A DNA stretch of 64,000 nucleotides, from assembly GCA_964496695.1 (NCBI GenBank), contig CAZCBE010000002.1, forward strand, positions 61,861-125,860, in the 5' to 3' direction. Shown in pieces: positions 517-51,123 of the stretch. Within the stretch, counting starts at the first letter, position 1. The number at the start of each line of letters is the position of its first letter. This DNA comes from an uncultured Klebsiella sp. (GTDB lineage Bacteria; Verrucomicrobiota; Verrucomicrobiia; Limisphaerales; SXTU01). The translations under genes and the position numbers were made by a program. A model generated the notes under the pieces. The model was not told the origin of the DNA. It ran no database searches and saw only the letters and a program-made list of their open reading frames with translations.

Positions 517-563
517 GGGCGGCGGACTTGTCAAACCACCCGGAATCAGCGATTTGTCAGACC

Positions 564-1219: not shown

Positions 1220-1279
1220 AATCACTGAGCACGATAACCTTACTTCGCCGTCCAACTGCTGTAGACAAATCACTTTCCG

Positions 1280-8304: not shown

Positions 8305-8310
8305 ACTGCT

Positions 8311-8421
8311 GCGGAGCGCGGGTCTGTGACCCGCAGCTACGTCCGTCCTGCGGATGCGTGCAGATTCCCCCGTGACCTTCTGGCTAAGCTGCCTGCTGCG
8401 GGTCACAGACCCGCGCTCCGC
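8311..8421. repeat. perfect 27-nt inverted repeat with 57-nt spacer (GCGGAGCGCGGGTCTGTGACCCGCAGC)
   Basis: 8311-8337 is the exact reverse complement of 8395-8421. It lies in the divergent spacer between the esterase (-) and DUF1080 (+) genes. It is related to the GGAGCGCCGGTCTCCGACCCGGCG family seen at 26169, 26335, 28588 and 28638. Confidence 0.9.
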
Positions 8422-8614
8422 CCGCGTTTCGGTGCCGTGGTCCAATACACCAAGTGCAAAGGTTCGCGCGAAAAATCCCTTTCCGTGGCTGTGCATCGGC
8501 GGGCAGACTACGAGGCGCTTCGCCCCGGGTCAAAGTAAACGGACCACGCGGTCTCGTGCCGTGGTGGTGGTCCGGTTTCCTGATGGGCGGAGGCAACGAA
8601 TTCGTCAGCCAACC

Positions 8615-9367
8615 ATGAAATCGAAACTGTCCGTCCGCTCCTCCTCCCTGGCTCTCGCCACGCTTCTGCTCGCCGCGTTGACCCTCCCCGCCGCCGAACC
8701 GGTTCCGCCGAAGGGTTTCCGCGCGCTCTTCAACGGCAAAGACCTCACCGGCTGGTATGGTCTGAACCCGCACAACAGCGTAAAGCTCCAGGGCGAAAAG
8801 AAGGATGCCAACCTCAAGCAGCAGCGCGAGGAATTCTCAAAGCACTGGACCGTCGAGAACAGCGAACTGGTCAACAGCGGCACCGGCCCTTACGCCACGA
8901 CGGATGCGGAGTTCGGCGACATCGAGTTCCTCATCGAATACAAGACCGTGGCGAAGGCCGACAGCGGCATCTACCTGCGCGGCACGCCGCAGGTGCAGAT
9001 CTGGGATGTGAACCAAGTGTTCAACGAGAAGAACCCCACGCGCAAGCCGCACCTCGGCTCCGGCGGTCTCTTTAACAACACGCCGGGCGCTCCCGGCCGC
9101 GATCCGCTCGTGGTGGCGGACAAACCCTTTGGCGAGTGGAATACCTTTCGCATCCAGCAGGTCGGCGCGACCACCTGGGTGTGGCTCAACGGCAAGGTGG
9201 TGGTGGATCGGGCGGTGATGGAAAACTACTGGGACAAGAAGCAGCCGCTCCCGGCGAAAGGCCCGATCATGCTCCAGACCCACGGCGGCGAGATCCGCTG
9301 GCGGAACATCTTCGTGCGGGAGATCGGTGAGGCGGAGGGAAAGAAGCTGCTCGCAGGGGCAAAGTAA
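8615..9367 (+). CDS. DUF1080 domain protein (3-keto-disaccharide hydrolase-like)
   Basis: Start taken at ATG 8615 (MKSKLSVRSSSLALATLLLAALTLPAAEP signal). WTVENSELVNSG...FGDIEFLIEY...DSGIYLRG...PFGEWNTFRI...NG...IMLQTHGGEIRWRNIFVREI is the DUF1080 pattern. Confidence 0.85.
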   Translation: MKSKLSVRSSSLALATLLLAALTLPAAEPVPPKGFRALFNGKDLTGWYGLNPHNSVKLQGEKKDANLKQQREEFSKHWTVENSELVNSGTGPYATTDAEFGDIEFLIEYKTVAKADSGIYLRGTPQVQIWDVNQVFNEKNPTRKPHLGSGGLFNNTPGAPGRDPLVVADKPFGEWNTFRIQQVGATTWVWLNGKVVVDRAVMENYWDKKQPLPAKGPIMLQTHGGEIRWRNIFVREIGEAEGKKLLAGAK

Positions 9368-9379
9368 CTCACAAGTCGC

Positions 9380-10381
9380 ATGCGTCCCGTCAGTCTCATC
9401 CGTCGCCTCGCTTCTGCGATGCTGCTGCTGGCCTTCGTCGCACAGCCTCAAGCAGCCGAATCACCTAAAGTCGTCAAAGTCTTCATCCTCGCCGGCCAGT
9501 CGAACATGGAAGGGCACGGGTTCATCGCGGCGGACCCTAAACGAAACGGTGGCAAAGGCTCGCTGGAGTTCCTGTTGAAGGACGCGGCCACCGCGTCGAA
9601 GTTTGCGCATCTCGCGGATGCCGCAGGCAAGTGGCGCGTGCGTGACGATGTCTTCATCCACTACCTCCAGCGGAAGGGGCCGCTCACCACCGGCTTTGGC
9701 GCGAAGGATACGCTCATTGGCCCGGAGCTGGGCTTCGGCTGGGTGACGGGCGATGCGCTGAAGGAGCCGGTGCTGCTCATCAAATGTGCCTGGGGCGGTA
9801 AGAGCCTCGCGGTGGACTTCCGTCCGCCCAGCGCGGGGAAGCTGCCGTATTCCATGGGTGAGAAGGCGGATGCCGCCCTCGCGCAAGACCCGGCCATGCT
9901 CGGCAAGTATTATCGCGAAACCGTGGCGCTCACGAAGGCCGCGCTGGCGCAAGTGAAGGAACTCGTGCCCGGCAGCGACGGGCGCTACGAGATCGTCGGC
10001 TTCGGCTGGCACCAAGGGTGGAATGATCGCATCAACGACAAGTTCAACGCGGAATACGAGAGCAACATGGCGCACTTTATCCGCGACATCCGTCGCGACC
10101 TGGGCGTGGCGAAGCTGCCGTTCGTGATCGCGGAGAGCGGCATGAGCGGCTTTGAGGAAAAGCATCCGCGCGCCCTCTCGCTCATGAAGGCGCAGGCCGC
10201 GGTGGCCGATTATCCTGAGTTCAAAGGCAATGTCGGCTTCGTCGGCACCAAGGCCTTCTGGCGTCCCGTCGAGTCCTCGCCGTCAGGGCAGGGCTACCAC
10301 TGGAACACGAACGCGGAGACTTATTATCTGATTGGTGAGGCGATGGGCCGGGCGATGCTCAAGCTCCTGGAGAAACCCTAA
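9380..10381 (+). CDS. sialate O-acetylesterase-like esterase (DUF303/SGNH type)
   Basis: 333 aa with a signal peptide, then VKVFILAGQSNMEGHG (GQSNM nucleophile block). The TAA stop overlaps the next ATG (TAATG). Confidence 0.8.
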   Translation: MRPVSLIRRLASAMLLLAFVAQPQAAESPKVVKVFILAGQSNMEGHGFIAADPKRNGGKGSLEFLLKDAATASKFAHLADAAGKWRVRDDVFIHYLQRKGPLTTGFGAKDTLIGPELGFGWVTGDALKEPVLLIKCAWGGKSLAVDFRPPSAGKLPYSMGEKADAALAQDPAMLGKYYRETVALTKAALAQVKELVPGSDGRYEIVGFGWHQGWNDRINDKFNAEYESNMAHFIRDIRRDLGVAKLPFVIAESGMSGFEEKHPRALSLMKAQAAVADYPEFKGNVGFVGTKAFWRPVESSPSGQGYHWNTNAETYYLIGEAMGRAMLKLLEKP

Positions 10382-13300
10382 TGAGATTTGTCCTTCCTTT
10401 GGTGGCAGTCACGCTGGCGTTGTCGGCTGGCCTTATGCATGCGGCCCCGGCCGATTATCAAAAGGACATCCGCCCGCTGCTCAACGAGTTCTGCCTCAAG
10501 TGTCACTCGACCAAGGATCAGAAGGGCGACCTCGACTTGGAGCGGTTCAAGTCGCTGGACTCTGTGAAGCGCGACGCCAAGGTCTGGCTGCAGGTGGAGG
10601 AACAGATCGAACTGGGTGAGATGCCCCCCAAGGACAAGCCACAGCTCTCCAGCGCACAGAAAACCCAGCTCATGACGTGGTTGCGCGGCACGCTCAATGA
10701 CATCGCGAAAGCCAATGCGGGCGACCCCGGGCCGGTTGTCCTCCGCCGCCTCTCGAACGCCGAATACACCTATACCGTGCGCGACCTCACGGGCGTCGAG
10801 TCCCTCGATCCCGCGCGCGAGTTCCCTGTGGATGGCGCGGCGGGCGAGGGCTTCTCGAACACCGGCGCGGCGCTCGTCATGTCGCCCGCGCTGCTCACGA
10901 AGTATCTTGATGCCGCGAAAGACATCGCCGCGCACGCCGTGCTGCTGCCCGATGGCGTGCGGTTCTCGCCGAGCACTTCACAGCGTGACTGGAGCGAGGA
11001 GCGGCTCACGGCCATCCGCACGTTCTATGCGCAGTTCACTGAGAAGGGCGGCGGCACGGCGGTCAATCTGCAGGGCATCAAGTTCGACACCAAGGACGGC
11101 GGCGTGCTGCCGCTTGAAAAGTATCTTGCTGCGACGCTCGCCGAGCGCGATGTGTTGGCTACCAAGCGCAAGTCAATTGCCGACATCGCCAAGGAACGCG
11201 GCCTCAACGCGAAATATCTCGGCACGCTCTGGGCCGCGCTCAACGGCACGGAGCCTTCGCTGGTGCTGGATCTCGTCCGTGCCCAATGGCGCGCCGCGAA
11301 GCCTGCGGACGCGTCGGCCCTGGTCGCCTCGATCGCGCAGTGGCAGCGGACCTTGTGGCGCTTCACGACCGTCGGTCACATCGGCAAGCGCAACGGTCCG
11401 TTGGCGTGGCAGGTTCCGGTGCTTCCACTCGCCGCCTCGCAGGAGATACGAGTGAAGCTCGCCGCGCCAAGCAACGGCAACGAAGTCACCTTTTATCTCC
11501 TCGCGTCCGATGCGGGCGACGGCAACGGGCACGATTTCGCCGTCTGGGAAAATCCGCGGCTGATCGCGCCTGGCCGGCCCGACCTGCGCCTGCGTGATGT
11601 GCGCGAGGCGGTCCTGGCCTTCCAATCGCAGCGCGAGCGCGTCGCGGCCAGCGCGGCCAAGTGTCTTGCGGCGGCGGCGGAAGCCGCGGCGATGTCTGAC
11701 CGTGCCGCTGTTGACCAGCTCGCGCAGAAGCACGGCGTCGAGCCAACGCTGTTGGTGGCGTGGCTGGATTATCTCGGCATCGGCGGCGGGCCGGTGCGGG
11801 TGACCTCGCACATGACCAAGAAGGCCGAGAACGCGAACAATTACGATTTCATCAAGGGCTGGACCGGTGCGGATGCATTGAGCGTGCTGGCGAATTCGAG
11901 CGACCAGGCCGTGCGTATTCCCGGCCACATGAAGCCGCACAGCGTCGGCGTGCATCCGTCGCCGAAGCTGCGCGTGTGCGTCGGTTGGAGCAGCCTGGTC
12001 GCGGCGACCGTGCGCGTCGAGGCTGCGGTGCAGCACGCGCATCCCGAGTGCGGCAACGGGGTCACCTGGGCTGTGGAACTTCGGCGGGGCAGCACGCGCC
12101 AGCGCCTGGCCGCCGGCACCGCCCAGGGCGCGAAGGAAGTGAAAGTTCCGCTGGTGGAAAACCTCGCGGTGCAGCCGGGCGACCTGCTCTCGCTCGTCAT
12201 CGGCCCGCGCGACGGCAACCACTCGTGCGACATGACGGCAGTGGACCTGGACATCAAGAGCGCCGACGGCAAGCAGTGGAACGTCGCACGCGACGTCTCG
12301 CCGAACATCCTCGCTGGCAACCCGCACGCGGACGGCTTGGGCAACCCCGGCGTCTGGCATTTCTACAGCGAGCCGGACAGCGGTGGCGGGGCGGACTCCG
12401 TGATCCCGGCCGGCTCGGTCTTGGCGAAATGGCGTGCTGCCACTGACGCGAGGGAGCGAAGCCGGCTGGCGGACGAGGTGCAAAGGTTGTTGCAGGGCAA
12501 TGCGGCTGGTCTGGCCAAGGGTGCGCCTGATCTGGTCCTTCATCGCGAACTTACGTCGCTTGGCGGCCCGCTGTTCAAGCACCAACCGGGTAGCAGCCGA
12601 CGTGAGGAGGCTCCGATCAAACCCCGCGATAATCAGAGCCTCCTCACGTCGGCTGCTACCTGGGGTCTTGATCCCGCGCTCTTCGGCAAGCACCCGAATG
12701 GCACCGCCCTTCCGGCGGCGAATCTTTGCGTGCGCGCGCCTTCGCTCATTGAGGTGCGTCTGCCCGCAGCGTTGGTCGAAGGCTGCGAGTTCGTGACCAC
12801 CGCCACCTTGCACCGCGAGACCGGGGCGGAAGGCAGCGTGCAAATGCAGGTGCTGACGAACAAGCCTGCGAGCGCCTCCGGCCTCGCGGCCGGCACGGCG
12901 ACGGTGCTGGGCGGCAAGAGCACCTGGTCGGACGGCGAGCGGCCCGTGGGGTCGGACGCGCCCATTCTCGTGGCGGAAGGCAGCGCGTCACGCAAACGCA
13001 TCGAGACGGCGCTCGACGGGTTCCGCCAGCTCTTCCCCGCCGCACTCTGCTACACGAAGATCGTGCCAGTGGACGAGGTCGTGACCCTCACGCTCTATTA
13101 TCGTGAGGATGACCAGCTTCGCCGCCTGATGCTGGATGATGCGCAGGCCGCCGAGCTGGACCGGCTCTGGGCCGAACTGCACTTTGTCAGTCACAGCCCG
13201 CTCAAGCTCGTGGATGCCTTCGAGCAGCTCTGGCAGTTCGCCACGCAGGACGCGGACCCGAGCGCCTTCACGCCGATGCGCGAGCCGATCAAGCAGCGCG

Positions 13301-14589
13301 CGGAGGTCTTTCGCAAGGAACTGGTCGCCGCCGAGCCGAAGCAGATCGAGGCGGTGTTGAACTTCGCCGGACAGGCATGGCGACGTCAGCTTACGAGTGC
13401 TGAAAGGACCGAACTTGGCGCGCTCTATCGCACTTTCCGCGCTCAGGAGCTTTCGCACGACGCCGCGCTGCGCATGACGCTAGCCCGGGTGTTTGTTGCG
13501 CCAGGCTTTCTCTACAAGCTGGAGAAGCCTGCGCCGGGCACCGCGCAGTCGCCGGTAAGTGATACGGAGCTGGCCACCCGGCTGAGCTACTTCCTCTGGT
13601 CCTCCACGCCGGACAGTGAACTGGCCGGGCTGGCGTCAGCAGGCAAGCTGCGCAATCCCGAGGTGCTTGCGACCCAGATGCGGCGGATGCTGAAGGACCC
13701 GCGGGTGCGGCGGCTGGCGGTGGAGTTCGGCGCGCAGTGGCTGCACACGCGCGACCTCGACAAGCTCGACGAGAAGAGCGAGCGGCACTTCCCGACGTTC
13801 GCCTCGGTGCGCGGCGCGCTGAATGAGGAACCGATTCGCTTCTTCACCGACCTCTTCCAGCACGACGGCTCCGTGCTGGCGCTGCTGGATGCGGACTACA
13901 CGTTCGTGAACGGCACGTTGGCGAAGCACTACGGATTGACCGGTGTGAACGGCAACGAGTGGCGGCGGGTGGAGGGCGTGCGCGCGCAGGGCCGCGGCGG
14001 CGTGCTGGGCTTCGGCGCGACGCTGGCGAAGCAGAGCGGGGCTTCGCGCACGAGTCCGATTCTGCGCGGCAACTGGCTCAGCGAAACCCTGCTCGGCGAG
14101 CGTCTGCCGCGTCCGCCCAAGGGCGTGCCCGTGCTGCCCGAGGAAGCCCCCGCCGGACTCACCGAGCGCGCGCTGACCGAGAAGCATAGCAGCGACCCGA
14201 AGTGCGCCGGCTGCCACGCGCGCATTGATCCGTTCGGCTTCGCCCTGGAGCGCTATGACGCCATCGGCCGGCTACGGACGAAGGATGCAGCCGGCCTGGC
14301 GATTGACACCCGCACCCGCACGGCGGACGGCACGGCACTGGATGGCCTCGACGGGCTGCGGAACTACCTGCTCACGACGCGCCGCGAGGCTTTCGAGCGG
14401 CAGTTCTGCCGGAAGCTGCTCGGCTACGCGCTTGGGCGCGGCGTGCTGTTGAGCGACCAGCCGTTGATTGACGAGATGGTGAAGCAGCTTGCGGCGAACG
14501 AACATCGCGTCGGTTCCGTCGTCGAACTGATCGTGCGCAGCCGCCAGTTCCGTGAAATTCGCAGTCGCGACCGGGCCTCGGCCGAGTAA
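10381..14589 (+). CDS. giant PSCyt/DUF1587/DUF1592/DUF1595/DUF1588/DUF1585-type protein
   Basis: 1402 aa. Signal peptide, then N-terminal CLKCH (CxxCH). LRRLSNAEYTYTVRDLTGV (DUF1587-like). ...SRTSPILRGNWLSETLLG... (DUF1588-like). CAGCHARIDPFGFALERYDAIG (DUF1585-like). Confidence 0.85.
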   Translation: MRFVLPLVAVTLALSAGLMHAAPADYQKDIRPLLNEFCLKCHSTKDQKGDLDLERFKSLDSVKRDAKVWLQVEEQIELGEMPPKDKPQLSSAQKTQLMTWLRGTLNDIAKANAGDPGPVVLRRLSNAEYTYTVRDLTGVESLDPAREFPVDGAAGEGFSNTGAALVMSPALLTKYLDAAKDIAAHAVLLPDGVRFSPSTSQRDWSEERLTAIRTFYAQFTEKGGGTAVNLQGIKFDTKDGGVLPLEKYLAATLAERDVLATKRKSIADIAKERGLNAKYLGTLWAALNGTEPSLVLDLVRAQWRAAKPADASALVASIAQWQRTLWRFTTVGHIGKRNGPLAWQVPVLPLAASQEIRVKLAAPSNGNEVTFYLLASDAGDGNGHDFAVWENPRLIAPGRPDLRLRDVREAVLAFQSQRERVAASAAKCLAAAAEAAAMSDRAAVDQLAQKHGVEPTLLVAWLDYLGIGGGPVRVTSHMTKKAENANNYDFIKGWTGADALSVLANSSDQAVRIPGHMKPHSVGVHPSPKLRVCVGWSSLVAATVRVEAAVQHAHPECGNGVTWAVELRRGSTRQRLAAGTAQGAKEVKVPLVENLAVQPGDLLSLVIGPRDGNHSCDMTAVDLDIKSADGKQWNVARDVSPNILAGNPHADGLGNPGVWHFYSEPDSGGGADSVIPAGSVLAKWRAATDARERSRLADEVQRLLQGNAAGLAKGAPDLVLHRELTSLGGPLFKHQPGSSRREEAPIKPRDNQSLLTSAATWGLDPALFGKHPNGTALPAANLCVRAPSLIEVRLPAALVEGCEFVTTATLHRETGAEGSVQMQVLTNKPASASGLAAGTATVLGGKSTWSDGERPVGSDAPILVAEGSASRKRIETALDGFRQLFPAALCYTKIVPVDEVVTLTLYYREDDQLRRLMLDDAQAAELDRLWAELHFVSHSPLKLVDAFEQLWQFATQDADPSAFTPMREPIKQRAEVFRKELVAAEPKQIEAVLNFAGQAWRRQLTSAERTELGALYRTFRAQELSHDAALRMTLARVFVAPGFLYKLEKPAPGTAQSPVSDTELATRLSYFLWSSTPDSELAGLASAGKLRNPEVLATQMRRMLKDPRVRRLAVEFGAQWLHTRDLDKLDEKSERHFPTFASVRGALNEEPIRFFTDLFQHDGSVLALLDADYTFVNGTLAKHYGLTGVNGNEWRRVEGVRAQGRGGVLGFGATLAKQSGASRTSPILRGNWLSETLLGERLPRPPKGVPVLPEEAPAGLTERALTEKHSSDPKCAGCHARIDPFGFALERYDAIGRLRTKDAAGLAIDTRTRTADGTALDGLDGLRNYLLTTRREAFERQFCRKLLGYALGRGVLLSDQPLIDEMVKQLAANEHRVGSVVELIVRSRQFREIRSRDRASAE
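12589..12660. repeat. 72-nt palindromic repeat inserted in frame in the DUF1592-type CDS
   Basis: Perfect 25-nt arms, 12589-12613 (GGTAGCAGCCGACGTGAGGAGGCTC) and 12636-12660 (exact reverse complement), with a 22-nt loop. It translates as (G)SSRREEAPIKPRDNQSLLTSAAT. Confidence 0.9.
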
Positions 14590-14601
14590 ACTTTCAAAAC
14601 T

Positions 14602-15933
14602 ATGAGCACCCATCGCTTCAACCGCCGCGCCTTCCTGCGCGGCGTCGGCGTCACCATGGCGCTGCCGTGGATGGAGTCCTTCAACGTGTGGGGCGATGAG
14701 CCGGGCAAGAGCAAGCCGGCCAGTGAGGCTCCGGTGCGGCTCGCGGTGCTGTTCTCCGGCAACGGCTTTCACTCGAAGGAATGGTGGGCCAAGGGCGAGG
14801 GCAAGGCGATGGAACTGGGCCGGGTGCTCGCGCCGCTGCATGACCTCCGCGAGAAGCTGACCTTCGTGCGCGGCCTGTATCACGAGGAGGCGCGCAAGGG
14901 GAACATCCACAGTTCGCAGACGGGCAACATGCTCTCGGGCGCGCCCATCGCATCAGGCGGGGAGATTCGGTCGGGCACGAGCTTTGACCAGTTGCTGGCG
15001 CAGACGTATGGGCGTTCGACGAAGGTGCCGAGTCTCGTGCTGGGCTGCGAGCACTCGAACCCGTCGGTGCATAAGAACTACTCGATGCTCTACAGCTCGC
15101 ACATCTCGTGGAGTTCACCCACCACGCCGACGCCGCTGGAGCTATATCCGGCGCTGGCGTTCGACCGGCTGTTCAAGGACGAGGCCACGCCCGGCGACAA
15201 GAGCGTGCTGGATGCGGTGCTGACGGACGCGCAGGACCTGCGCCGCAGCATCAGCAAGGGCGACCAGCGCAAGCTCGACGAGTATCTCGACTCGGTGCGT
15301 GACGTGGAGAAGCGCATTGAGAACGCCGGCAAGCGCGGCGAAGTGCAGGGCTGGCGGCCCACGCTTGACAAGCCCAATATCAAGCGTCCGGCCGACGGCA
15401 TCCCGCAGGATGTCGGCGAGCACATGCGGCTCATGTGCGATCTGCTGGTGCTGGGTTTCCAGACGGACACCACGCGCATCACGACGCTGAAGCTGAACAA
15501 CGACCACAGCGCGCTGCGCTTCCCGAACCTGCCCAGCGTGCAGCAGGCGGGCCACGGCATTGACTACATGATCCACCACCTGCTCTCGCACAGCGACGGC
15601 GAGGACTGGCTGAAGGTGAACCAGTTCTTCATGGAGCAGGTGGCGTATGTCGCGAAGAAGCTCGACGCGATTCAGGAAGGGCCGCGCACGCTGCTCGACA
15701 ACACGATGCTCATGCACTGTTCCAGCATGATGGCCGGGGCGAGACACGACAACGACCAGCTCCCGGTCATCGTCCTCGGCGGCGCCGGTGGCCGCCTCAA
15801 AGGCGGTCGCGCCCTCGATTACAAGGACAAGCCCGACCGCCAGCTCTGCCGGCTCTATCTCTCGATGATGGACAAGATGGCGGTGCGGCCAGCGAGCTTT
15901 GGCGATGGGAAGAAGCCGTTGGAGGAGGTCTGA
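14602..15933 (+). CDS. DUF1552 domain protein, Tat signal
   Basis: 443 aa. FNRRAFLRGVGVTMALPWMESF leader typical of DUF1552. Internal MIHHLLSHSD (HxxSHH-like). Directly follows the DUF1592-type gene. Confidence 0.85.
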   Translation: MSTHRFNRRAFLRGVGVTMALPWMESFNVWGDEPGKSKPASEAPVRLAVLFSGNGFHSKEWWAKGEGKAMELGRVLAPLHDLREKLTFVRGLYHEEARKGNIHSSQTGNMLSGAPIASGGEIRSGTSFDQLLAQTYGRSTKVPSLVLGCEHSNPSVHKNYSMLYSSHISWSSPTTPTPLELYPALAFDRLFKDEATPGDKSVLDAVLTDAQDLRRSISKGDQRKLDEYLDSVRDVEKRIENAGKRGEVQGWRPTLDKPNIKRPADGIPQDVGEHMRLMCDLLVLGFQTDTTRITTLKLNNDHSALRFPNLPSVQQAGHGIDYMIHHLLSHSDGEDWLKVNQFFMEQVAYVAKKLDAIQEGPRTLLDNTMLMHCSSMMAGARHDNDQLPVIVLGGAGGRLKGGRALDYKDKPDRQLCRLYLSMMDKMAVRPASFGDGKKPLEEV

Positions 15934-16019
15934 GGGCTTGCGCGTCTGACAAGCCAGTTCATCCGCTAAACCGGCCCGCGCGGACCGTCGCATCACCCTT
16001 TCTTCCAGGAAACCAACCG

Positions 16020-19000
16020 ATGAACCTTCTCTTCATCCTGCCTGTGGTCCTGCTCTTTTCCTTCGGCCAGCTTCGCGCTGCGGATGCCAGCGCAAGCGTT
16101 GCCATGGCGGAAAAACATCGTGCCTTGTTCAAGACGCATTGCGTCTCCTGTCATGGACCGGAGAAGCAGAAAGGCAAGTTCCGCGTGGATGATCTGCCCT
16201 TCACCCTCTCGAACATCGAGACGGCGGAGCGCTGGCAGAAGGTGCTCAACGCACTGAACTCCGGCGAGATGCCGCCGGAGGGCGAGCCGCCGCTGCCGAA
16301 TGCCGCGAAGGCTGATTTCCTCGATGATCTGGCGAACGTGATGGTGGCGGCACGGCGGAGCCTGAGCGATCAGAACGGCGTCATCACCATGCGGCGGCTC
16401 AACCGGCGAGAGTATCGGAACACGCTGCGCGAGCTGCTCGGGGTGGAGATCAACGTGGCGGAGCTGCCGTCGGACACGGGCACCGGCGGCTTTGACACGG
16501 CGGGCGTGAACCTGTTCATGTCGGCGAACCAGTTCGAGCAGTATCAATCGCTCGGACGCGAGGCGCTGGTGGAGGCCTTTGCCTGGCAGGCGGCGGCGGG
16601 CGAGGAGCGCAAGCTGCGCTACGAGGCGGAGAGTTCGCTCAAGGTCATCACCAAGAATTACCAGGAGAAGCTCGATGCGCTGGAGCGGGCGAAGCAGTGG
16701 GTGAAGGCCGTGGATGCAGCAGCGGCTCGCCCAGAGAACGCAAAGGTTGTGGCGGTGCTGCGGGCAGAGTCGAAGAGCGGCGACCTCTTCCGCCGGTCGT
16801 GGGCGAAGCTCAAGGGCGCGCCCGCGCCGGAGGATTTTGGCTTCCGAACGGTGGAGAACAACGCCGACAAGGCCAACGGTGCGCTGAGCTACGGAACACC
16901 GACCGGGGCGGGTTACATGCGGCCTTACCACGAACACTATCTGAAGCAGCCGCACCTGGACACGGGTGCCTATCTGACCATCATGGCCGGCAATGACCTT
17001 GGCAACGACGCGCTGAGCATCTACGTGCCGCCGAGCTGGCCGGTGGGGGATTACACGGTGCGCGTGCGCGTGGCGGCGACGCCGCAGGCTTCGCCGGAGC
17101 GGCGCTTCATCGAGTTCGGCATTCACCCGCGCAACGGGCAGGTGATGAGCACGCATGAGGTCACGGGCACGCTGGCCGCGCCGCAAATCATTGAGATTCC
17201 CCTCACGCTGACCAAGGGCAACCAGGACCGCGACAACCGCACGATCTTCATTCGCGAGAAGGGCAGCAACGATCACTACACCCAGACCCGCCTCATCTTT
17301 AACCAGGGCAAGGCAAAGAACGGGATCGGCCCGGAACTGGCACTGTGGGTGGACTGGGTGGAGGTCGAGCGCAAAACGAAAACCGCACCGGTGAGCGCTC
17401 CAGCGGTGGTGAAGTTCGGCATTGGTGACAACCGTCAGGTCGGCTCCGTTTCCGCAAAAGGGCTGACCGCCGTGCGCTTCGAGTGCGAGACCGCGAACGA
17501 GAAGGTGTCCAAGTATGTCGCCGGGCAGATTGATGCGCGGGACCGGGCGCAGCGCTGGGTGAAGGCGGTGGAGGAGGCCGCTGCACGGCCGGAGAACAAG
17601 GAGATTGTTGCTGAACTGAAGAAGAACTCGAAGAACGACGCCATCTTCCGCCGCTCATGGGACAAGCTCAAAGGCGCGCCCTCGCCCGAGTCGTTCGGCT
17701 TCAAGACGGAGGAGAACAACGCGGACAAGGCCAACAGCGCGCTCGGGGAGAACTGGCAGAAGTATCATGAGTATTACCTGCGGCAGCCTGGCCTCGACCG
17801 CGGCGCGTATCTCGGCACGCCCACGATGCACCCGGCGGTGATGGCGCTGGGCTTCCTGCAGTTGCCCGTGCCCGGCGAGTGGACCAGCGGCAACTACGTC
17901 TTTCGCGTGCGCCTGGCGGCGGCGAAGGACGCGCGGCCGGAGCAGCGCTTTCTCGAAGTGGGCATGCATCCGCGCAATGGCATGGTCCGCGCGACGTTCG
18001 AGGTTACGGGCACGATGGACCGGCCGCAGATCGTCGAAATGCCCTTCACGCTCACGCGTTCCCAGACTGATGCGGGTGATCGCACCCTGTTCATCCGTGA
18101 GAAAGGTGCCTGGGACAGCAACGAGGAAGGGGGACGCAAACGTGCGGAAGCGCTGAAGCGCAACGGCATCGGCCCCGAGGCCGTGCTATGGATTGACTAC
18201 ATGGAAATCGAGCGGCTCAGCGACGCCGTCCGCCCGCAGCCGCCCGGCCTGGCGGCGCTCGCTGGCCTCCCGGTGGATGATAAGACCAGTGCGCCGTCAT
18301 CCACCGAGGTGCAAGCGGCGCTCGCCCGTTTCGCCACGGTGGCGTTCCGCGGCACCGAACCGCCGGCGAGCTATCTGCAACGGCTCGCCAGCATCTACGA
18401 CACGCAGTTGAAGTCCGGCACGAAGCACAGCGTGGCGCTGCGGGAGACGCTCGCCGTGGTGTTGTCATCGCCCATGTTTCTCTATCTCGCCGAGCCGGCC
18501 GCCGATGAGAAGCGCCGTCCGCTTACCGGTCCCGAACTGGCCACGCGGCTTGCCTATTTTCTCTGGAGCGCGCCGCCGGATGAGACGCTGCTGGAGCTGG
18601 CCAGACGCGGCGAACTGGCGAAGCCCGAGGTGCTCGCCGCCGAGACCGCGCGGTTGCTGGATGACCCGCGTGCGCAGGACTTCGTGCGCGGCTTCCTGTT
18701 CCAGTGGCTGGGGATGGACCGGCTCGATTTCTTCGAGGTGAACCGCGCGAAATACCCGCGCTTCGATGACAGCACCCGGCTGGCCGCGAAGAACGAGGTG
18801 TATGAAACCTTTGCCCATGTCCTGCGGCACAACGCCCCGCTGCGCGATCTCCTCAAGTCCGACTATGTCGTCGTCAATCACCTGCTGGCGGACTTCTACG
18901 GCATTCCCGGCGTGAGCGGCGATGCCTACCAGAAGGTGTCGCTGCCCAAGGATTCACCGCGCGGCGGCCTGCTCGGCATGGCCGCCATCAACGTCATGGG

Positions 19001-19571
19001 CGGCAACGGCGACCACACCAGCCCCGTCGAGCGCGGAGCCTGGGTGCTGCGCAAGCTCCTCAATGATCCGCCGCCGCCGGCCCCGGCGAACGTGCCGCAA
19101 ATCACCCGGCTCGCCGGCAAAGTGCTCACCACCCGCGAGCGGCTGCAGGCGCATCAGGAGGATGCGCAGTGCGCGAGCTGTCACCGCAAGATTGACCCCA
19201 TCGGATTCGGCCTGGAGAATTTCGATGCCGTCGGCCAATGGCGCACCAGCGACACCTATCAGGTCATGGACGAGAAAGGCAAACCGGTGAAGGGGGCGAG
19301 CAAGACCTGGACGATCGAGGTCACTTCACAGCTTTACAAAGGCCCGGCCTTCCGGAGCTACTTCGAGCTGCGCGACCTCATTGCCGCCAAGGGCGACAGC
19401 TTCGCCCGGGGGTTCAGCATGGCCTTGACCGAGTATGCGCTGGGCCGCCCGTTGGGATTCCGTGACGAGCCGCTGATCGAGGCGATGGTGTGGCGCACGG
19501 GGCAGAAGGGATTCGCCACGCGCGAGTTCGTCCATGCGCTGGTGAGCAGCCGGGAGTTTCAAACCAAGTGA
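16020..19571 (+). CDS. second PSCyt/DUF1587/DUF1592/DUF1588/DUF1585-type protein with an internal domain duplication
   Basis: 1183 aa. CVSCHGPEKQKGKFRVDDL, MRRLNRREYRNTLRELLGVE, HTSPVERGAWVLRKLL, CASCHRKIDPIGFGLENFDAVG. Two ~250-aa internal repeats (about 16614-17372 and 17472-18215). Confidence 0.85.
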   Translation: MNLLFILPVVLLFSFGQLRAADASASVAMAEKHRALFKTHCVSCHGPEKQKGKFRVDDLPFTLSNIETAERWQKVLNALNSGEMPPEGEPPLPNAAKADFLDDLANVMVAARRSLSDQNGVITMRRLNRREYRNTLRELLGVEINVAELPSDTGTGGFDTAGVNLFMSANQFEQYQSLGREALVEAFAWQAAAGEERKLRYEAESSLKVITKNYQEKLDALERAKQWVKAVDAAAARPENAKVVAVLRAESKSGDLFRRSWAKLKGAPAPEDFGFRTVENNADKANGALSYGTPTGAGYMRPYHEHYLKQPHLDTGAYLTIMAGNDLGNDALSIYVPPSWPVGDYTVRVRVAATPQASPERRFIEFGIHPRNGQVMSTHEVTGTLAAPQIIEIPLTLTKGNQDRDNRTIFIREKGSNDHYTQTRLIFNQGKAKNGIGPELALWVDWVEVERKTKTAPVSAPAVVKFGIGDNRQVGSVSAKGLTAVRFECETANEKVSKYVAGQIDARDRAQRWVKAVEEAAARPENKEIVAELKKNSKNDAIFRRSWDKLKGAPSPESFGFKTEENNADKANSALGENWQKYHEYYLRQPGLDRGAYLGTPTMHPAVMALGFLQLPVPGEWTSGNYVFRVRLAAAKDARPEQRFLEVGMHPRNGMVRATFEVTGTMDRPQIVEMPFTLTRSQTDAGDRTLFIREKGAWDSNEEGGRKRAEALKRNGIGPEAVLWIDYMEIERLSDAVRPQPPGLAALAGLPVDDKTSAPSSTEVQAALARFATVAFRGTEPPASYLQRLASIYDTQLKSGTKHSVALRETLAVVLSSPMFLYLAEPAADEKRRPLTGPELATRLAYFLWSAPPDETLLELARRGELAKPEVLAAETARLLDDPRAQDFVRGFLFQWLGMDRLDFFEVNRAKYPRFDDSTRLAAKNEVYETFAHVLRHNAPLRDLLKSDYVVVNHLLADFYGIPGVSGDAYQKVSLPKDSPRGGLLGMAAINVMGGNGDHTSPVERGAWVLRKLLNDPPPPAPANVPQITRLAGKVLTTRERLQAHQEDAQCASCHRKIDPIGFGLENFDAVGQWRTSDTYQVMDEKGKPVKGASKTWTIEVTSQLYKGPAFRSYFELRDLIAAKGDSFARGFSMALTEYALGRPLGFRDEPLIEAMVWRTGQKGFATREFVHALVSSREFQTK

Positions 19572-19647
19572 AGCCTGCAGAGCCATTGCCCAAACCCTTT
19601 CCTTCAATCATTCCGCCGATGCCATCGTCCGCTGTTCCACGAACTGC

Positions 19648-20940
19648 ATGAACGCCCCGCTCCGACGCCGTCGTTTCCTCCAATCCAGCACCGCGCTGAT
19701 CGCGTTGCCAGCGCTCGAATCACTGGGCTTCCGTCGCTTTGCCTCGGCGGCCCCGGCGGCCCCGCCGAAGCGGCTGATCTTCCTCGGCTTCGGCTGGGGC
19801 ATCACCGAGAGCACCTGGTATCCGGACATCAAAAAGCCGGGCACGGATTATGAGCTGCCCATCGGCCTCAAGCCGCTCGCGCGGCACAAGGCGGACTTTA
19901 GCGTCGTGCAGGGGTTGTGGAACAAATACTCAAACGAAGGCCACTGGGGCAGCACGATGTGGCTGACGGGGGCGAACCGGTATGCGCAGCCGGGGCAGAG
20001 CTTTCACAACAGCATCAGTGCGGACCAGGTCGCGGCGGCGCAGCTTGGCCTCCAGACGCGGTTTGCTTCCTTGCAGTTCAATGGCAGCCAGACGGGAGAC
20101 GCCAGCGGGCACGGGCCTGGCCTGTCAATGGCCTGGGATGTGAGCGGGAAGCCGGTGGGCGGGCAGAACGGCCCTGTGGCGGCATTCCACCGGCTCTTTG
20201 CCAAGGACACCACGCCCATCGAGCAGCAAAAGGCGTTGCTGGCGCAGAAGCGCAGCGTCCTGGACGCGGTGCTCGACAACGCGAAAGCCTTGCAGCGCGG
20301 CCTCGCGAAGAACGACAACACCAAGCTCGAAGAATACTTTCAGGGCATCCGCGACATCGAGACGCGGCTCGCAAAGGAAGAGCAGTGGATGGGCGTGCCG
20401 CAGCCGAAGGCCCCGATCCCCGAGCCCAAGCCCGGCGTGAACGGCAAGGAGGAGATCAAGCTCATCTATGACCTCATGATCGCCGCGATGCAGACGGACA
20501 GCACGCGGGTGATGACCTTCCGCCAGCCTGTGAACACGCTGCTGACCGCGTTGGACATCAAGGTGCATCCGCACGACATGAGCCACTATCACACCACGCT
20601 GGGCGAGAAGCTGGACGCCTCGCAGCGTCGGGATCTGGCGCAGAGCGAACTGCTCGCGGGTTTTCTCGACAAGCTCAAGGCCACGAAGGAATCCGACGGC
20701 ACCACGCTCTTTGACCATGTCGCCCTGGCCTACGGCAGCAACATCCGCACGGGGCACGAGCTGAGCAACTGCCCCACCATCCTCGCCGGCCGGGGGGCGG
20801 GCATCAAACTCGGCCAGAGCATCGTCGCGCCGAAGGACACGCCGCTGTGCAATGTCTGGCTGACCATGCTGCACGGGCTGGGCGTCAAGGCGGAGCGGCA
20901 TGGGGACAGCACGGGGGTGCTGAAGGAAATTGTGGTGTGA
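19648..20940 (+). CDS. DUF1552 domain protein, Tat signal
   Basis: 430 aa. LRRRRFLQSSTALIALPALESL leader and HDMSHYH motif. Paralogue of 14602-15933. Confidence 0.85.
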   Translation: MNAPLRRRRFLQSSTALIALPALESLGFRRFASAAPAAPPKRLIFLGFGWGITESTWYPDIKKPGTDYELPIGLKPLARHKADFSVVQGLWNKYSNEGHWGSTMWLTGANRYAQPGQSFHNSISADQVAAAQLGLQTRFASLQFNGSQTGDASGHGPGLSMAWDVSGKPVGGQNGPVAAFHRLFAKDTTPIEQQKALLAQKRSVLDAVLDNAKALQRGLAKNDNTKLEEYFQGIRDIETRLAKEEQWMGVPQPKAPIPEPKPGVNGKEEIKLIYDLMIAAMQTDSTRVMTFRQPVNTLLTALDIKVHPHDMSHYHTTLGEKLDASQRRDLAQSELLAGFLDKLKATKESDGTTLFDHVALAYGSNIRTGHELSNCPTILAGRGAGIKLGQSIVAPKDTPLCNVWLTMLHGLGVKAERHGDSTGVLKEIVV

Positions 20941-20995
20941 AGCCGTGACCTGAATGACCTCGGCGGCGGTGGCCCCGCCAAGCCAAACCAATCTC

Positions 20996-50106: not shown

Positions 50107-50125
50107 GCCATTCAGTCTTCACCAA

Positions 50126-51115: not shown

Positions 51116-51123
51116 CGCCAGAA

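What the first reader, a model, noticed from the sequence alone, without database searches (positions are those of the whole stretch)
10381..20940. Tandem cassettes of giant double-CxxCH protein plus Tat-exported DUF1552 partner; a third, related cassette lies at the window start
Two consecutive gene pairs share one design. Each pairs a signal-peptide protein of 1402 or 1183 aa with a 430-443-aa twin-arginine DUF1552 protein. The large proteins have an N-terminal CxxCH (CLKCH, CVSCH), DUF1587/1592/1588-type blocks and a second CxxCH near the C-terminus (CAGCH, CASCH). In the DUF1552 partners, RRxFL is followed by ALP.(M/L)ES and an HxxSH-type motif. The DUF1553 fragment (1-516) plus DUF1501 (1280-2728) is the sister architecture. 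These pairings are well known from Planctomycetes/Verrucomicrobia annotation. To my knowledge they have no experimentally defined function. Heme-type motifs plus a sulfatase-fold periplasmic partner, embedded among glycan esterases and propellers, hint at a redox-linked extracytoplasmic substrate-processing system.
Basis: partly seen in the sequence, partly recalled or inferred. Interest (0 to 1): 0.55.

Follow-up and report, generated by a model that had tools for sequence, protein, structure and literature searches.

The report
PVC cytochrome-like and DUF1552 gene pairs
Two neighbouring gene pairs in a Verrucomicrobium each combine a large exported protein, with two heme-attachment motifs and a variable middle part, with a highly conserved partner related to alkaline-phosphatase/sulfatase-type enzymes; the pairing is already in the literature, but nobody has shown what it does.

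Summary
Both large proteins have PSCyt1-PSD3-[variable insert]-PSD5-PSD4-PSCyt3-PSD2 with two CxxCH motifs. Both partners are twin-arginine DUF1552/HXXSHH proteins.

The pairing is prior art (Kamneva 2012 for the sister DUF1501 system; He 2017 for PSCyt3 genes). I found no biochemistry.

New here:
- The cassettes are old paralogues (29-36% identity). The closest relative lacks the second one.
- DUF1552 is homologous to DUF1501 (hhalign 97.4%). The large proteins' C-terminal module is homologous to PSCyt2 (87%). The two cassette types are therefore true sister systems.
- DUF1552 lacks the sulfatase formylglycine motif and instead has four (near-)invariant histidines.
- The partner is always more conserved than the large protein (81% vs 57%, 52/52 pairs).
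- The 1183-aa protein carries a duplicated module whose beta-sandwich resembles carbohydrate-binding modules.
- That cassette's orthologues sit beside carbohydrate esterases in 5 of 6 contexts.

Best reading (about 0.4): a periplasmic two-subunit enzyme, with a Tat-exported metallo-catalytic subunit and a diheme, glycan-targeting electron-transfer subunit. A non-redox hydrolase is a serious rival. This is a new member of a known but functionally unsolved kind.

The parts
1..516 (+). 3' end of a PSCyt2/PSD1 (DUF1549/DUF1553)-type gene cut by the window edge; the large-protein gene of the third (sister) cassette
   Evidence: PSD1 hit of 27.6 bits against profile positions 167-243 of 244. It is 41-81% identical to the C-terminal ends of ORFs that abut DUF1501 orthologues.
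1280..2728 (+). DUF1501 partner with a twin-arginine leader (third cassette)
   Evidence: Pfam DUF1501, E 7.7e-76. NCBIfam TAT_signal_seq. Orthologues at 72-96% identity in 80 metagenome loci.
8354..9367 (+). 3-keto-disaccharide hydrolase family (DUF1080) gene, first gene of the same-strand run
   Evidence: Pfam 3keto-disac_hyd, E 1.6e-37. There is a 12-nt gap to the next gene.
9380..10381 (+). SASA-family carbohydrate acetylesterase; its stop codon overlaps the start of the first large gene (TAATG)
   Evidence: Pfam SASA, E 2.4e-21. Junction sequence. The same SASA-to-large-gene order occurs in the closest relative, L005.
10381..14589 (+). Large protein 1 (1402 aa): Sec leader, cytochrome c-like PSCyt1, PSD3, about 800 aa without any Pfam match, then PSD5-PSD4-PSCyt3-PSD2
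10492..10506 (+). First CxxCH of large protein 1 (CLKCH, residues 38-42); Met81-Pro-Pro is the likely distal ligand segment
   Evidence: C, C, H and M-P-P are (near-)invariant in 79 homologues.
11602..12708 (+). About 370-aa segment of large protein 1 (residues 408-776) that the ~1040-aa orthologues lack
   Evidence: BLAST against the Humisphaera and Chthoniobacter orthologues aligns only residues 1-407 and 777-1400. No Pfam match.
13351..14550 (+). Conserved all-alpha C-terminal module of large protein 1 (PSD5, PSD4, PSCyt3, PSD2)
   Evidence: Pfam. 36% identical to the same module of large protein 2. Homologous to PSCyt2.
14203..14217 (+). Second CxxCH of large protein 1 (CAGCH, residues 1275-1279), with invariant His1269 six residues upstream
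   Evidence: Invariant in 89/89 homologues.
14602..15933 (+). DUF1552/HXXSHH partner 1 (443 aa), 12 nt after large gene 1
   Evidence: Pfam, E 6e-86. Orthologues at 74-94% identity across Verrucomicrobiota, Planctomycetota and some Acidobacteriota.
14620..14637 (+). Twin-arginine motif NRRAFL of partner 1
   Evidence: R8 and R9 are each present in 79 of 80 diverse family members.
15577..15591 (+). H326-x3-H330 (HLLSH) of partner 1, core of the family's histidine cluster (with H103 and H382)
   Evidence: H326, H330 and H382 in 80/80, H103 in 78/80.
16020..19571 (+). Large protein 2 (1183 aa): same end modules as large protein 1, different insert
   Evidence: AlphaFold model with pLDDT 78.8.
16140..16154 (+). 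First CxxCH of large protein 2 (CVSCH, residues 41-45)
16614..17372 (+). Repeat module 1 of large protein 2 (residues 199-451): helical part plus beta-sandwich
   Evidence: 50% identical to module 2, E 8e-87. Secondary structure. The whole-chain Foldseek hit list is dominated by CBM22/CBM15/CBM35/malectin/EngBF; I attribute these matches to the beta-sandwiches.
17472..18215 (+). Repeat module 2 of large protein 2 (residues 485-732)
   Evidence: Relatives of about 900 aa cover only about 60% of the query, which fits a single copy.
18309..19559 (+). Conserved all-alpha C-terminal module of large protein 2 (PSD5, PSD4, PSCyt3, PSD2)
   Evidence: No solved relative by sequence.
19170..19184 (+). 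Second CxxCH of large protein 2 (CASCH, residues 1051-1055), with invariant His1045
   Evidence: The model is low-confidence here (992-1053), as expected for a site modelled without its cofactor.
19648..20940 (+). DUF1552/HXXSHH partner 2 (430 aa), 76 nt after large gene 2; RRRRFL at 19663-19680, HDMSH at 20572-20586
   Evidence: Pfam, E 6e-76. The best 120 database clusters are 84-96% identical. Residue mapping.
20954..21883 (+). BD-FAE-type carbohydrate (acetyl/feruloyl) esterase, 13 nt after partner 2
   Evidence: Pfam BD-FAE, E 7e-55. In relative L005 it follows partner 1 with no second cassette in between.

Best explanation
Each cassette encodes a two-subunit periplasmic enzyme.

The small DUF1552 protein is the catalytic subunit. 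It is exported folded through the Tat pathway. It has an alkaline-phosphatase/sulfatase-type alpha/beta core whose usual catalytic residues are replaced by a cluster of four (near-)invariant histidines plus acidic residues, probably a metal site.

The large protein is exported by Sec and receives two c-type hemes. Its N-terminal His/Met class-I-like cytochrome domain exchanges electrons with the respiratory chain or another carrier. Its conserved all-alpha C-terminal module, carrying the second heme, docks onto and wires the catalytic subunit. Its variable middle part selects the substrate; in the 1183-aa protein this is two helical-plus-CBM-like beta-sandwich modules.

The second cassette most likely acts on esterified hemicellulose-type glycans or their fragments.

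Shown: domain content, motif invariance, gene coupling, homology to the DUF1501/PSCyt2 system, and neighbourhoods. Inferred: heme binding, metal binding, complex formation, redox chemistry, and the substrate.
For: 1. Gene coupling. The gaps are 12 and 76 nt. In 65 loci of the first partner's orthogroup with enough upstream DNA, the large gene is directly upstream in 52, directly downstream in 3 and upstream with a 0.5-1.9 kb gap in 4. The flanking genes differ between genomes.

2. Different export routes. The large proteins have Sec-type leaders, as c-type heme attachment requires. Twin arginines are present in 79/80 DUF1552 members. This combination is typical of periplasmic dehydrogenases with a cofactor-bearing subunit and a cytochrome c subunit (established knowledge: SorAB, SoxCD, glucoside 3-dehydrogenase).

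3. Heme motifs. C41, C44, H45 and M84-P85-P86 are conserved in 77-79 of 79 sequences, and H1045, C1051, C1054 and H1055 in 89 of 89. PSCyt1, and for the 1183-aa protein also Cytochrome_CBB3 and Cytochrom_C, score above their gathering cut-offs.

4. Partner conservation. H326, H330 and H382 are present in 80/80 members, H103 in 78/80, D129 in 79/80. The partner is more conserved than the large protein in 52/52 pairs (mean 80.9% vs 57.3%). This is what one expects of a catalytic core paired with a specificity subunit.

5. Fold. DUF1552 vs DUF1501 by hhalign gives 97.4%, E 1.2e-11. DUF1501 members give weak Sulfatase/Phosphodiest/DUF229 hits. The Foldseek hit list for the DUF1552 model consists mostly of alkaline-phosphatase-superfamily enzymes.

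6. Substrate side. The 1183-aa protein has two beta-sandwich modules, and its Foldseek hits are CBM22, CBM15, CBM35, malectin and EngBF. Orthologues of this cassette lie next to GDSL, CE4, CE15, AXE1 or BD-FAE esterases in 5 of 6 contexts. They also lie near DUF1080, AP_endonuc_2, PQQ/GSDH dehydrogenase and GH43 genes.

7. Prior authors reached the same tentative reading for the sister system (PMC3542564).
Against: - No experiment shows heme, metal, a complex or activity.
- Enzymes of the alkaline-phosphatase superfamily are hydrolases, transferases or mutases, and I know of no redox-active member (from memory). A histidine cluster could equally be a hydrolytic zinc, iron or calcium site.
- Tat export is also used by non-redox members of that superfamily (PhoD, PhoX, PlcH; from memory).
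- The DUF1552 model is of low confidence (pLDDT 55.8) and no single structural hit is significant.
- From memory, DUF1501 also pairs with heme-less DUF1800 proteins in Proteobacteria; the pairing itself is described in PMC5122149. If so, heme may be an add-on and not the core of the mechanism.
- The glycan context is absent around the first cassette's orthologues in Humisphaera and Chthoniobacter.
- I did not compute the background frequency of esterase genes in these genomes.
- The CBM resemblance rests on modest TM-scores (0.35-0.45), and sugar binding is not shown.
Confidence: 0.4

Rival explanations
1. DUF1552 is a non-redox metallohydrolase of the alkaline-phosphatase superfamily (phospho-, sulfo- or other ester cleavage). 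The large protein is an accessory subunit that binds and presents a polymeric substrate. Its hemes serve a structural, regulatory or redox-sensing role and not catalysis.
For: Homology to DUF1501. DUF1501's weak Sulfatase/Phosphodiest hits. A Foldseek list of hydrolases and mutases. Neighbours that are mostly hydrolytic esterases. Tat-exported hydrolases of this superfamily are known (PhoD, PhoX, PlcH; from memory). DUF1501 pairs with DUF1800, which I recall as heme-less, elsewhere.
Against: The formylglycine motif is absent. The position after the first beta-strand is Asn/Gly and not the usual metal-binding Asp. Two heme motifs are kept invariant across 79-89 homologues, which is costly to maintain for a purely structural role.
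Confidence: 0.25
2. The large protein is a glycan-anchored electron shuttle, like Cellvibrio Cbp2D, that feeds electrons to a separate oxidative enzyme such as a lytic polysaccharide monooxygenase. DUF1552 is an adaptor or maturation factor and not the catalyst.
For: Cbp2D combines a CBM, c-type cytochrome domains and a DUF1587/PSD3 domain, and its X183 cytochrome domain reduces LPMOs (PMC8981238). A Cellvibrio DUF1592 protein with a CBM2 appears in a multi-omics study of a lignocellulose-degrading community (PMC6004670). One related locus has a large protein with a faint AA9 hit (L175).
Against: Pfam found no LPMO domain and no YceI-like domain in the window genes examined. The tight coupling to DUF1552 and its extreme conservation point to a core catalytic role for DUF1552. 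The AA9 hit is of the faint class, which rarely passes Pfam's threshold.
Confidence: 0.12
3. The pair is a non-enzymatic periplasmic binding or uptake device for polysaccharides in PVC bacteria. Many paralogous cassettes would provide different ligand specificities, comparable in logic to SusD-like proteins.
For: The DUF1552 family is large (11,121 representatives at the 50%-identity cluster level). The large proteins carry variable CBM-like inserts. Several cassettes occur per locus. He et al. note that PSCyt gene density is inversely related to glycoside-hydrolase gene density.
Against: Invariant histidines and acidic residues in the partner, and invariant heme motifs, are hallmarks of chemistry and not of binding. 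No transporter gene is consistently adjacent.
Confidence: 0.1
4. The module serves internal-membrane or cell-plan functions specific to compartmentalised PVC bacteria, as proposed for the DUF1501 system in 2012.
For: Kamneva et al. report a correlation of 0.85 between one DUF1501 cluster type and intracellular membranes. In locus L008 a first-cassette DUF1552 orthologue sits directly after three genes of that cluster type: a PPC protein, a PSCyt1/WD40 protein and DUF1501.
Against: The first partner's orthogroup also occurs in MAGs labelled Acidobacteriota. The neighbours are substrate-processing enzymes. The correlation is confounded by phylogeny.
Confidence: 0.03

Closest known systems
PSCyt3-type gene pairs of freshwater Verrucomicrobia (He et al. 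2017, PMC5615132) and the Rhodopirellula baltica PSCyt/PSD domains (Studholme et al. 2004, cited there)
   Same: Same domain set. The same statement is made there that PSCyt3 genes usually sit next to one family of unknown genes, that CBMs occur in some members, and that sulfatase/glycan genes lie nearby. Function is stated to be unknown.
   Different: Nothing essential differs: the window holds two further members. Added here: homology of the partner to DUF1501, the partner's histidine cluster, the asymmetry in conservation, the duplicated CBM-like module and the esterase association.
DUF1501 + PSCyt1/PSCyt2/PSD1 module of PVC bacteria (Kamneva et al. 2012, PMC3542564)
   Same: Same logic: a Sec-exported cytochrome-motif protein with optional carbohydrate-binding domains next to a twin-arginine protein. 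Both halves are homologous to those of the present cassettes. One such cassette is at 1-2728 in the window, and DUF1501 genes lie within 7 kb of the first partner's orthologues in 25 of 80 loci.
   Different: Different Pfam families. PSCyt2/PSD1 stands in place of PSD3/PSD5/PSD4/PSCyt3/PSD2. DUF1501 has a WDxH-type motif where DUF1552 has HxxSH(H).
Cellvibrio japonicus Cbp2D (CBM2, YceI-like X158, FN3, cytochrome domains X183 and X132, DUF1587), an LPMO electron donor (PMC8981238)
   Same: A c-type cytochrome domain together with a DUF1587/PSD3 domain and a carbohydrate-binding module in one secreted protein. This is the only relative in which a domain, the X183 cytochrome domain, has been studied experimentally.
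   Different: No YceI-like or FN3 domain here. Cbp2D's published domain map lists no PSD5/PSD4/PSCyt3/PSD2 block. I found no report of a DUF1552 partner for Cbp2D. No LPMO gene was seen in the window genes examined.
Two-subunit periplasmic dehydrogenases with a Tat-exported catalytic subunit and a Sec-exported cytochrome c subunit (SorAB, SoxCD, glucoside 3-dehydrogenase; from established knowledge). TsdBA, a multi-heme enzyme, is the structure on which Cbp2D's X183 domain superposes.
   Same: Division of labour and export routes; adjacent co-oriented genes.
   Different: Those catalytic subunits carry molybdopterin, FAD or heme. DUF1552 shows no such domain, only an alkaline-phosphatase-type scaffold with a histidine cluster. 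This is a resemblance in how it may work, not membership.
Type I (formylglycine) sulfatases and Tat-exported phosphatases PhoD/PhoX of the alkaline-phosphatase superfamily
   Same: Probable shared core fold. Tat export of some members (from memory).
   Different: No C/S-x-P/A-x-R motif. No significant Pfam hit of DUF1552 to any family of that clan in 80 members. Different conserved residues. No cytochrome partner in the classical enzymes.
DUF1800 + DUF1501 operons of Proteobacteria (mentioned in PMC5122149)
   Same: An adjacent pair with a DUF1501 protein that is predicted to form one operon, moves together by horizontal transfer, and has unknown function. That DUF1800 is helical is from memory.
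   Different: DUF1800 has no CxxCH motifs as far as I recall. I did not test homology to the large proteins here.

Membership tests
PSCyt3-type PVC large protein (PSCyt1-PSD3-PSD5-PSD4-PSCyt3-PSD2) | All six Pfam domains present, in this order, above gathering score | tested here: met
   both proteins (for example PSD4 at 143.6 and 142 bits, PSCyt3 at 109.5 and 118.2, PSCyt1 at 31.9 and 36.2 against a cut-off of 22).
PSCyt3-type PVC large protein (PSCyt1-PSD3-PSD5-PSD4-PSCyt3-PSD2) | Two conserved CxxCH motifs, one in PSCyt1 and one in PSCyt3 | tested here: met
   invariant in 79/79 (first motif) and 89/89 (second motif) homologues.
PSCyt3-type PVC large protein (PSCyt1-PSD3-PSD5-PSD4-PSCyt3-PSD2) | A DUF1552 gene immediately adjacent on the same strand | tested here: met
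   (gaps of 12 and 76 nt). (55 of 65 related loci directly adjacent).
DUF1552 / HXXSHH (PF07586) | Full-length profile match above gathering score | tested here: met
   289.2 and 256.4 bits against a cut-off of 30.
DUF1552 / HXXSHH (PF07586) | HxxSH(H) motif | tested here: met
   HLLSH (326-330) and HDMSH (309-313). Both His residues are present in 80/80 members and the Ser in 68/80. The final His of the name motif is Ser in partner 1.
DUF1552 / HXXSHH (PF07586) | Twin-arginine leader and actual Tat export | tested here: inconclusive
   The motif is present (R8 and R9 in 79/80), and 24 of 80 members give weak TAT_signal hits. Export itself cannot be tested with these tools.
Class I c-type cytochrome domain | CxxCH plus a distal Met, and a cytochrome c profile match | tested here: met
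   The 1183-aa protein scores Cytochrome_CBB3 29.4 (cut-off 27) and Cytochrom_C 22.4 (cut-off 21.3). The 1402-aa protein scores only 22 for Cytochrome_CBB3, below the cut-off. M-P-P is (near-)invariant about 40 residues after the motif. PDB sequence hits are weak and limited to the heme motif.
Class I c-type cytochrome domain | Covalently bound heme | not testable with these tools
   Needs heme staining or spectroscopy.
Alkaline-phosphatase / sulfatase superfamily (fold level) | Core alpha/beta fold shared with solved members | tested here: inconclusive
Type I sulfatase | C/S-x-P/A-x-R formylglycine motif after the second strand | tested here: not met
   Absent from both partners and from the window's DUF1501. 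Present in the relevant region in only 2 of 80 family members.
DUF1501 + PSCyt2/PSD1 sister cassette (window 1-2728) | A PSD1-bearing large gene followed by a DUF1501 gene | tested here: met
   DUF1501, E 7.7e-76. The PSD1 fragment is 0.9 bit below the cut-off, but it is homologous to the C-termini of ORFs that abut DUF1501 orthologues, and comparable ORFs upstream of DUF1501 elsewhere are PSCyt1/PSCyt2/PSD1. Adjacency is interrupted here by a 760-nt insert with a PIN-domain ORF.
Cbp2D-type LPMO electron donor | YceI-like quinone-binding domain and an LPMO partner | tested here: not met
   No such Pfam domains in the large proteins or in the neighbouring genes examined. Only the cytochrome and DUF1587 domains are shared.
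Two-subunit periplasmic dehydrogenase | A recognised redox cofactor domain in the Tat-exported subunit | tested here: not met
   No molybdopterin, flavin, iron-sulfur or copper-oxidase family hit in DUF1552 at E up to 5 in 80 members. A new kind of metal site cannot be excluded.

The most novel reading that the evidence does not exclude
DUF1552 (and by homology DUF1501) would be the first redox-active branch of the alkaline-phosphatase superfamily. Its scaffold would be rebuilt into a four-histidine metal centre that is wired through a dedicated diheme subunit. With swappable CBM-like modules, PVC bacteria would use it for oxidative, non-hydrolytic processing of esterified glycans in the periplasm. 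That would be a large enzyme class parallel to glycoside hydrolases and LPMOs.
Probability: 0.15. Interest if true: 0.8.

Novelty: new member of a known kind. Interest (0 to 1): 0.35.

Why it matters
These cassettes are among the most expanded gene families of Planctomycetota and Verrucomicrobiota. The DUF1552 family alone has more than 11,000 representatives at the 50%-identity cluster level. PSD1 and PSCyt2, the domains of the sister family's large proteins, each occur 41 times in Rhodopirellula baltica. The function of these cassettes has been an open question since 2004.

If the pair is a heme-wired enzyme that acts on glycans, a sizeable part of carbon turnover by these abundant freshwater, soil and marine bacteria runs through chemistry that current annotation does not capture.

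The window does not solve this. The analysis narrows what to test:
- DUF1552 and DUF1501 are one superfamily.
- The candidate active-site residues are H103, H326, H330 and H382, plus D129.
- The partner, not the large protein, is the constrained component.
- One orthogroup (the second cassette here) has a usable substrate lead, namely acetylated or feruloylated xylan-type material.

Tried and rejected
- Sequence searches of all four proteins, a DUF1552 profile and the isolated N- and C-terminal modules against PDB sequences gave nothing significant.
- The AlphaFold model of DUF1552, built from an alignment of two tight subfamilies, was poor (pLDDT 55.8). Foldseek against the PDB gave no significant single hit.
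- A Pfam scan of 80 DUF1552 members at E up to 5 found no recurrent hit to alkaline-phosphatase-clan families.
- hhalign of DUF1552 against the single window DUF1501 sequence gave 2%, and against a narrow DUF1501 profile 15%. Only a diverse DUF1501 profile gave a clear answer. A first run in global mode was meaningless.
- NCBIfam has no model for any of the four proteins.
- Pfam on sub-segments of the inserts of both large proteins found nothing.
- hhalign of the first large protein's family against the second's merged everything into one alignment. It did not show whether the inserts share a module.
- The promoter and terminator scan was uninformative; terminator-like sites were at chance level. 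The operon structure therefore rests only on strand and spacing.
- The search for related loci with the diverse DUF1552 alignment failed for lack of a conserved stretch.
- I considered a recent tandem duplication and rejected it: identity is only 29-36%, and the closest relative lacks the second cassette.
- I considered that the CxxCH motifs are chance and rejected it because they are invariant.

Full report
WHAT IS THERE. The four ORFs are exactly as reported: 10381-14589 (1402 aa), 14602-15933 (443 aa), 16020-19571 (1183 aa) and 19648-20940 (430 aa), all on the + strand. Pfam places both large proteins as PSCyt1, PSD3/DUF1587, a long stretch without any match, then PSD5/DUF1595, PSD4/DUF1592, PSCyt3/DUF1588 and PSD2/DUF1585, each above its gathering score. 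Both small proteins are HXXSHH/DUF1552 (E 6e-86 and 6e-76). The CxxCH motifs are at residues 38 and 1275 of the first large protein and at 41 and 1051 of the second. Both large proteins begin with a hydrophobic Sec-type leader. The partners begin with NRRAFL and RRRRFL, followed by ALPWMES and ALPALES, and carry HLLSH and HDMSH. At the window start, 1280-2728 is DUF1501. The fragment 1-516 is the C-terminal end of a PSD1-bearing protein. It is 0.9 bit under the Pfam cut-off, but it aligns with the C-termini of ORFs that abut DUF1501 orthologues in about 50 loci. Comparable ORFs upstream of DUF1501 genes in other loci are PSCyt1/PSCyt2/PSD1.

ORGANISM AND SETTING. The window is chromosomal: tuf, rpoB, rpoC, fusA and secY lie downstream. 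Its RpoB clusters at 90% or more with MAGs named Limisphaerales and Pedosphaera. The cassettes sit in a same-strand run: DUF1080 (3-keto-disaccharide hydrolase family), a SASA acetylesterase, large gene 1, partner 1, large gene 2, partner 2 and a BD-FAE esterase. The gaps are 12, -1 (TAATG overlap), 12, 86, 76 and 13 nt. A 2OG-Fe(II) oxygenase gene on the other strand, a BNR gene and an AP_endonuc_2 TIM-barrel gene follow. Consensus promoter and terminator scans added nothing.

NOT A RECENT DUPLICATION. The partners share 29% identity. The large proteins share 32% over the first 177 aa and 36% over the last 400 aa, and their middle parts are unrelated. In the closest relative found (L005; partner 92%, large protein 84%) the order is SASA, large gene 1, partner 1, BD-FAE, AP_endonuc_2, without the second cassette. 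The tandem arrangement is therefore lineage-specific, although several cassettes per locus recur elsewhere.

THE PAIR IS THE UNIT. There are 65 loci of the first partner's orthogroup with enough upstream DNA. The large gene is directly upstream in 52, directly downstream in 3 and upstream with a 0.5-1.9 kb gap in 4. In two further loci a DUF1501 gene takes that place. The flanking genes in Humisphaera borealis and Chthoniobacter flavus share nothing with the window.

ASYMMETRIC CONSERVATION. The partner is more conserved than the large protein in 52 of 52 pairs (mean 80.9% vs 57.3%). The best 120 database clusters for either partner are all 84-96% identical, across Verrucomicrobiota and Planctomycetota. 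The second large protein's relatives on the same contigs are only 68-80% identical.

THE LARGE PROTEINS. Across homologues of both subfamilies, C41, C44, H45 and M84-P85-P86 are conserved in 77-79 of 79 sequences (numbering of the 1183-aa protein). That is the pattern of a His/Met class I cytochrome c. H1045, C1051, C1054 and H1055 are invariant in 89 of 89, and the C-terminal module has no invariant Met. Heme 2 would therefore be His/His, or have an open or unusual sixth position; this is inference. The AlphaFold model of the 1183-aa protein (pLDDT 78.8) shows a small helical N-terminal domain, two repeats of a helical segment plus a beta-sandwich, and an all-alpha C-terminal block of about 420 aa. 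Confidence drops around the second heme motif. The two repeats (199-451 and 485-732) are 50% identical (E 8e-87). Relatives of about 900 aa cover only about 60% of the query, which fits a single copy. The Foldseek hits are EngBF (E 9e-6), tandem CBM22, CBM15, CBM35 and malectin, which I attribute to the beta-sandwiches. The inserts are therefore CBM-like; sugar binding is not shown. The 1402-aa protein has a different insert. About 370 aa of it (residues 408-776) are missing from the ~1040-aa orthologues. It has no Pfam match. The C-terminal block has no solved relative.

THE PARTNER. DUF1552 is a large family: 11,121 representatives at the 50%-identity cluster level at E of 0.001 or better. 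In 80 diverse members the invariant or nearly invariant residues are R8, R9, L21, P22, R46, G55, H103, D129, Q130, W170, D204, D221, H326, H330 and H382. The model was poor (pLDDT 55.8, pTM 0.68). No single Foldseek hit is significant, yet most of the hits shown are alkaline-phosphatase-superfamily enzymes: phosphopentomutase, LtaP, choline sulfatase, NPP/autotaxin, iPGM and alkaline phosphatase. The firm result is sequence-based. A DUF1552 profile aligns end to end with a diverse DUF1501 profile (hhalign 97.4%, E 1.2e-11, 371 columns). The alignment matches the twin-arginine leader, the first strand, the H...TG segment (H103), the LLD-x-(S/T) strand and the G-x-x-H segment (H382). DUF1501 proteins give recurrent weak hits to Sulfatase (6 of 10, best E 7.9e-5), Phosphodiest and DUF229 in that same C-terminal region. 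The sulfatase formylglycine motif is absent. The partner is therefore best described as a divergent alkaline-phosphatase/sulfatase-fold protein with a histidine-rich site, not as a sulfatase.

SISTER SYSTEMS. The C-terminal module of the large proteins aligns with the PSCyt2 region of the DUF1501-associated large proteins (hhalign 87%, E 4e-6, 325 columns), with QCASCH over KCASCH. Both halves of the two cassette types are thus homologous. The two types are also physically linked. 25 of 80 loci of the first partner's orthogroup carry a DUF1501 gene within 7 kb. In about ten of these it directly precedes the large gene or the DUF1552 gene, which gives four-gene clusters. In L008 the DUF1552 gene follows three genes of the four-gene cluster type that Kamneva et al. 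described: a PPC protein, a PSCyt1/WD40 protein and DUF1501.

CONTEXT OF THE SECOND CASSETTE. Six contexts of its orthogroup were inspected. Five contain carbohydrate esterases within a few genes: BD-FAE and SASA here; CE4 and several GDSL in L168; CE15 glucuronoyl esterase in L172; GDSL and AXE1/DLH in L173; and GDSL in L174. DUF1080, AP_endonuc_2, CBM9-GSDH, PQQ and GH43 genes also appear. Background frequencies were not computed, so this is a lead and not a statistic.

MECHANISM. The combination resembles periplasmic two-subunit dehydrogenases (established knowledge). It comprises a Sec-exported protein with two invariant heme c motifs, a Tat-exported and highly constrained partner with a histidine-rich site, tight gene coupling and swappable CBM-like inserts. 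I therefore favour, at about 0.4, a catalytic DUF1552 subunit wired by a diheme, substrate-targeting subunit, with esterified hemicellulose-type material as the lead substrate for the second cassette.

The main rival, at about 0.25, is an ordinary metallohydrolase with an accessory binding subunit. Three points support it. The fold family is hydrolytic. Tat export also occurs in PhoD, PhoX and PlcH (from memory). DUF1501 pairs with DUF1800 elsewhere, and I recall DUF1800 as heme-less. Lesser rivals are a Cbp2D-like electron shuttle for a separate oxidase, a non-enzymatic binding device, and a cell-plan role.

PRIOR KNOWLEDGE. Kamneva et al. 2012 described the DUF1501/PSCyt module, its twin-arginine and cytochrome signatures and its carbohydrate-binding add-ons. 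They proposed electron transfer to sugars or proteins, with function unknown. He et al. 2017 described PSCyt3 genes next to a family of unknown genes, CBMs in some members, and stated that nothing is known of their function. Searches by every DUF, Pfam and PSCyt name found no biochemistry. The library is open-access only, so a paper in a subscription journal could have been missed.

VERDICT. The finding is real and correctly described, but it is a new instance of a known, unsolved kind. Its interest lies in the open question, not in anything unusual about this locus.

Noticed in passing
window 513-1219 (+): A 101-aa ORF and an overlapping 134-aa PIN-domain ORF (Pfam PIN, E 5.7e-11), which looks like a VapBC-type toxin-antitoxin pair, lie between the PSD1-type gene and its DUF1501 partner. 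In the related loci compared, the PSD1-type ORF ends just upstream of the DUF1501 gene, and neither small ORF has a match in any of the 80 loci.
   Followed up: partly
window 14602-15933 and 19648-20940; loci L005-L084: The DUF1552 partners are unusually conserved. The best 120 database clusters are 84-96% identical, including genomes of another phylum (Humisphaera, Pirellula-like; 84-86%). Their large partners are only 40-84% identical. Whether this reflects extreme constraint or horizontal transfer was not resolved; identities show little phylogenetic gradient.
   Followed up: partly
window 14659-14679 and 19702-19722 (residues 20-26 of each partner): Leu21-Pro22 is invariant in 80 of 80 diverse DUF1552 proteins. 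It lies inside what should be the hydrophobic core of the Tat signal peptide, in the ALPxLES motif. That is unusual for a cleaved leader. It might mark a chaperone-binding or retained N-terminal segment.
   Followed up: no
L007, L017, L018, L020, L022, L025, L033, L078; L008-L010: A DUF1501 gene, where examined preceded by a PSCyt1/PSCyt2/PSD1 gene, sits directly upstream of the large gene of the DUF1552 cassette and forms four-gene clusters. In L008-L010 DUF1501 directly precedes DUF1552. In L008 the upstream genes are a PPC protein and a PSCyt1/WD40 protein, as in three of the four genes of the cluster of Kamneva et al. 2012.
   Followed up: partly
L175 11232-15982: Next to a second-cassette orthologue, the large-protein architecture is split into a 199-aa PSCyt1+PSD3 protein and a 1383-aa PSD5-PSD4-PSCyt3-PSD2 protein. 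The precomputed Pfam list for the latter includes a faint AA9 (LPMO) hit.
   Followed up: no
L001 11471-14959 (-), L168 12113-14713 (+), L169, L170: Large DUF7133 + HEAT_2 + Cytochrom_C proteins, with F5/8 type C domains in the Verrucomicrobiales loci, lie one or two genes downstream of DUF1552 genes of both orthogroups in unrelated genomes. They may be a recurrent third component.
   Followed up: no
L005 (RFVF01000007.1): This MAG is titled 'Proteobacteria bacterium', but its SASA, large-protein, DUF1552, BD-FAE and AP_endonuc_2 genes are 84-92% identical to those of the window, whose RpoB clusters with Limisphaerales/Pedosphaera. The label is probably wrong.
   Followed up: no
window 50001-52000: G+C drops to 0.555, against 0.60-0.67 elsewhere in the window, just after the fusA-like gene.
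   Followed up: no
window 8354-8496: The listed start of the DUF1080 ORF overlaps the 5' end of the opposite-strand ORF 6646-8496 by 143 nt, and the Pfam match begins only at residue 121. The true start codon may therefore lie further downstream.
   Followed up: no
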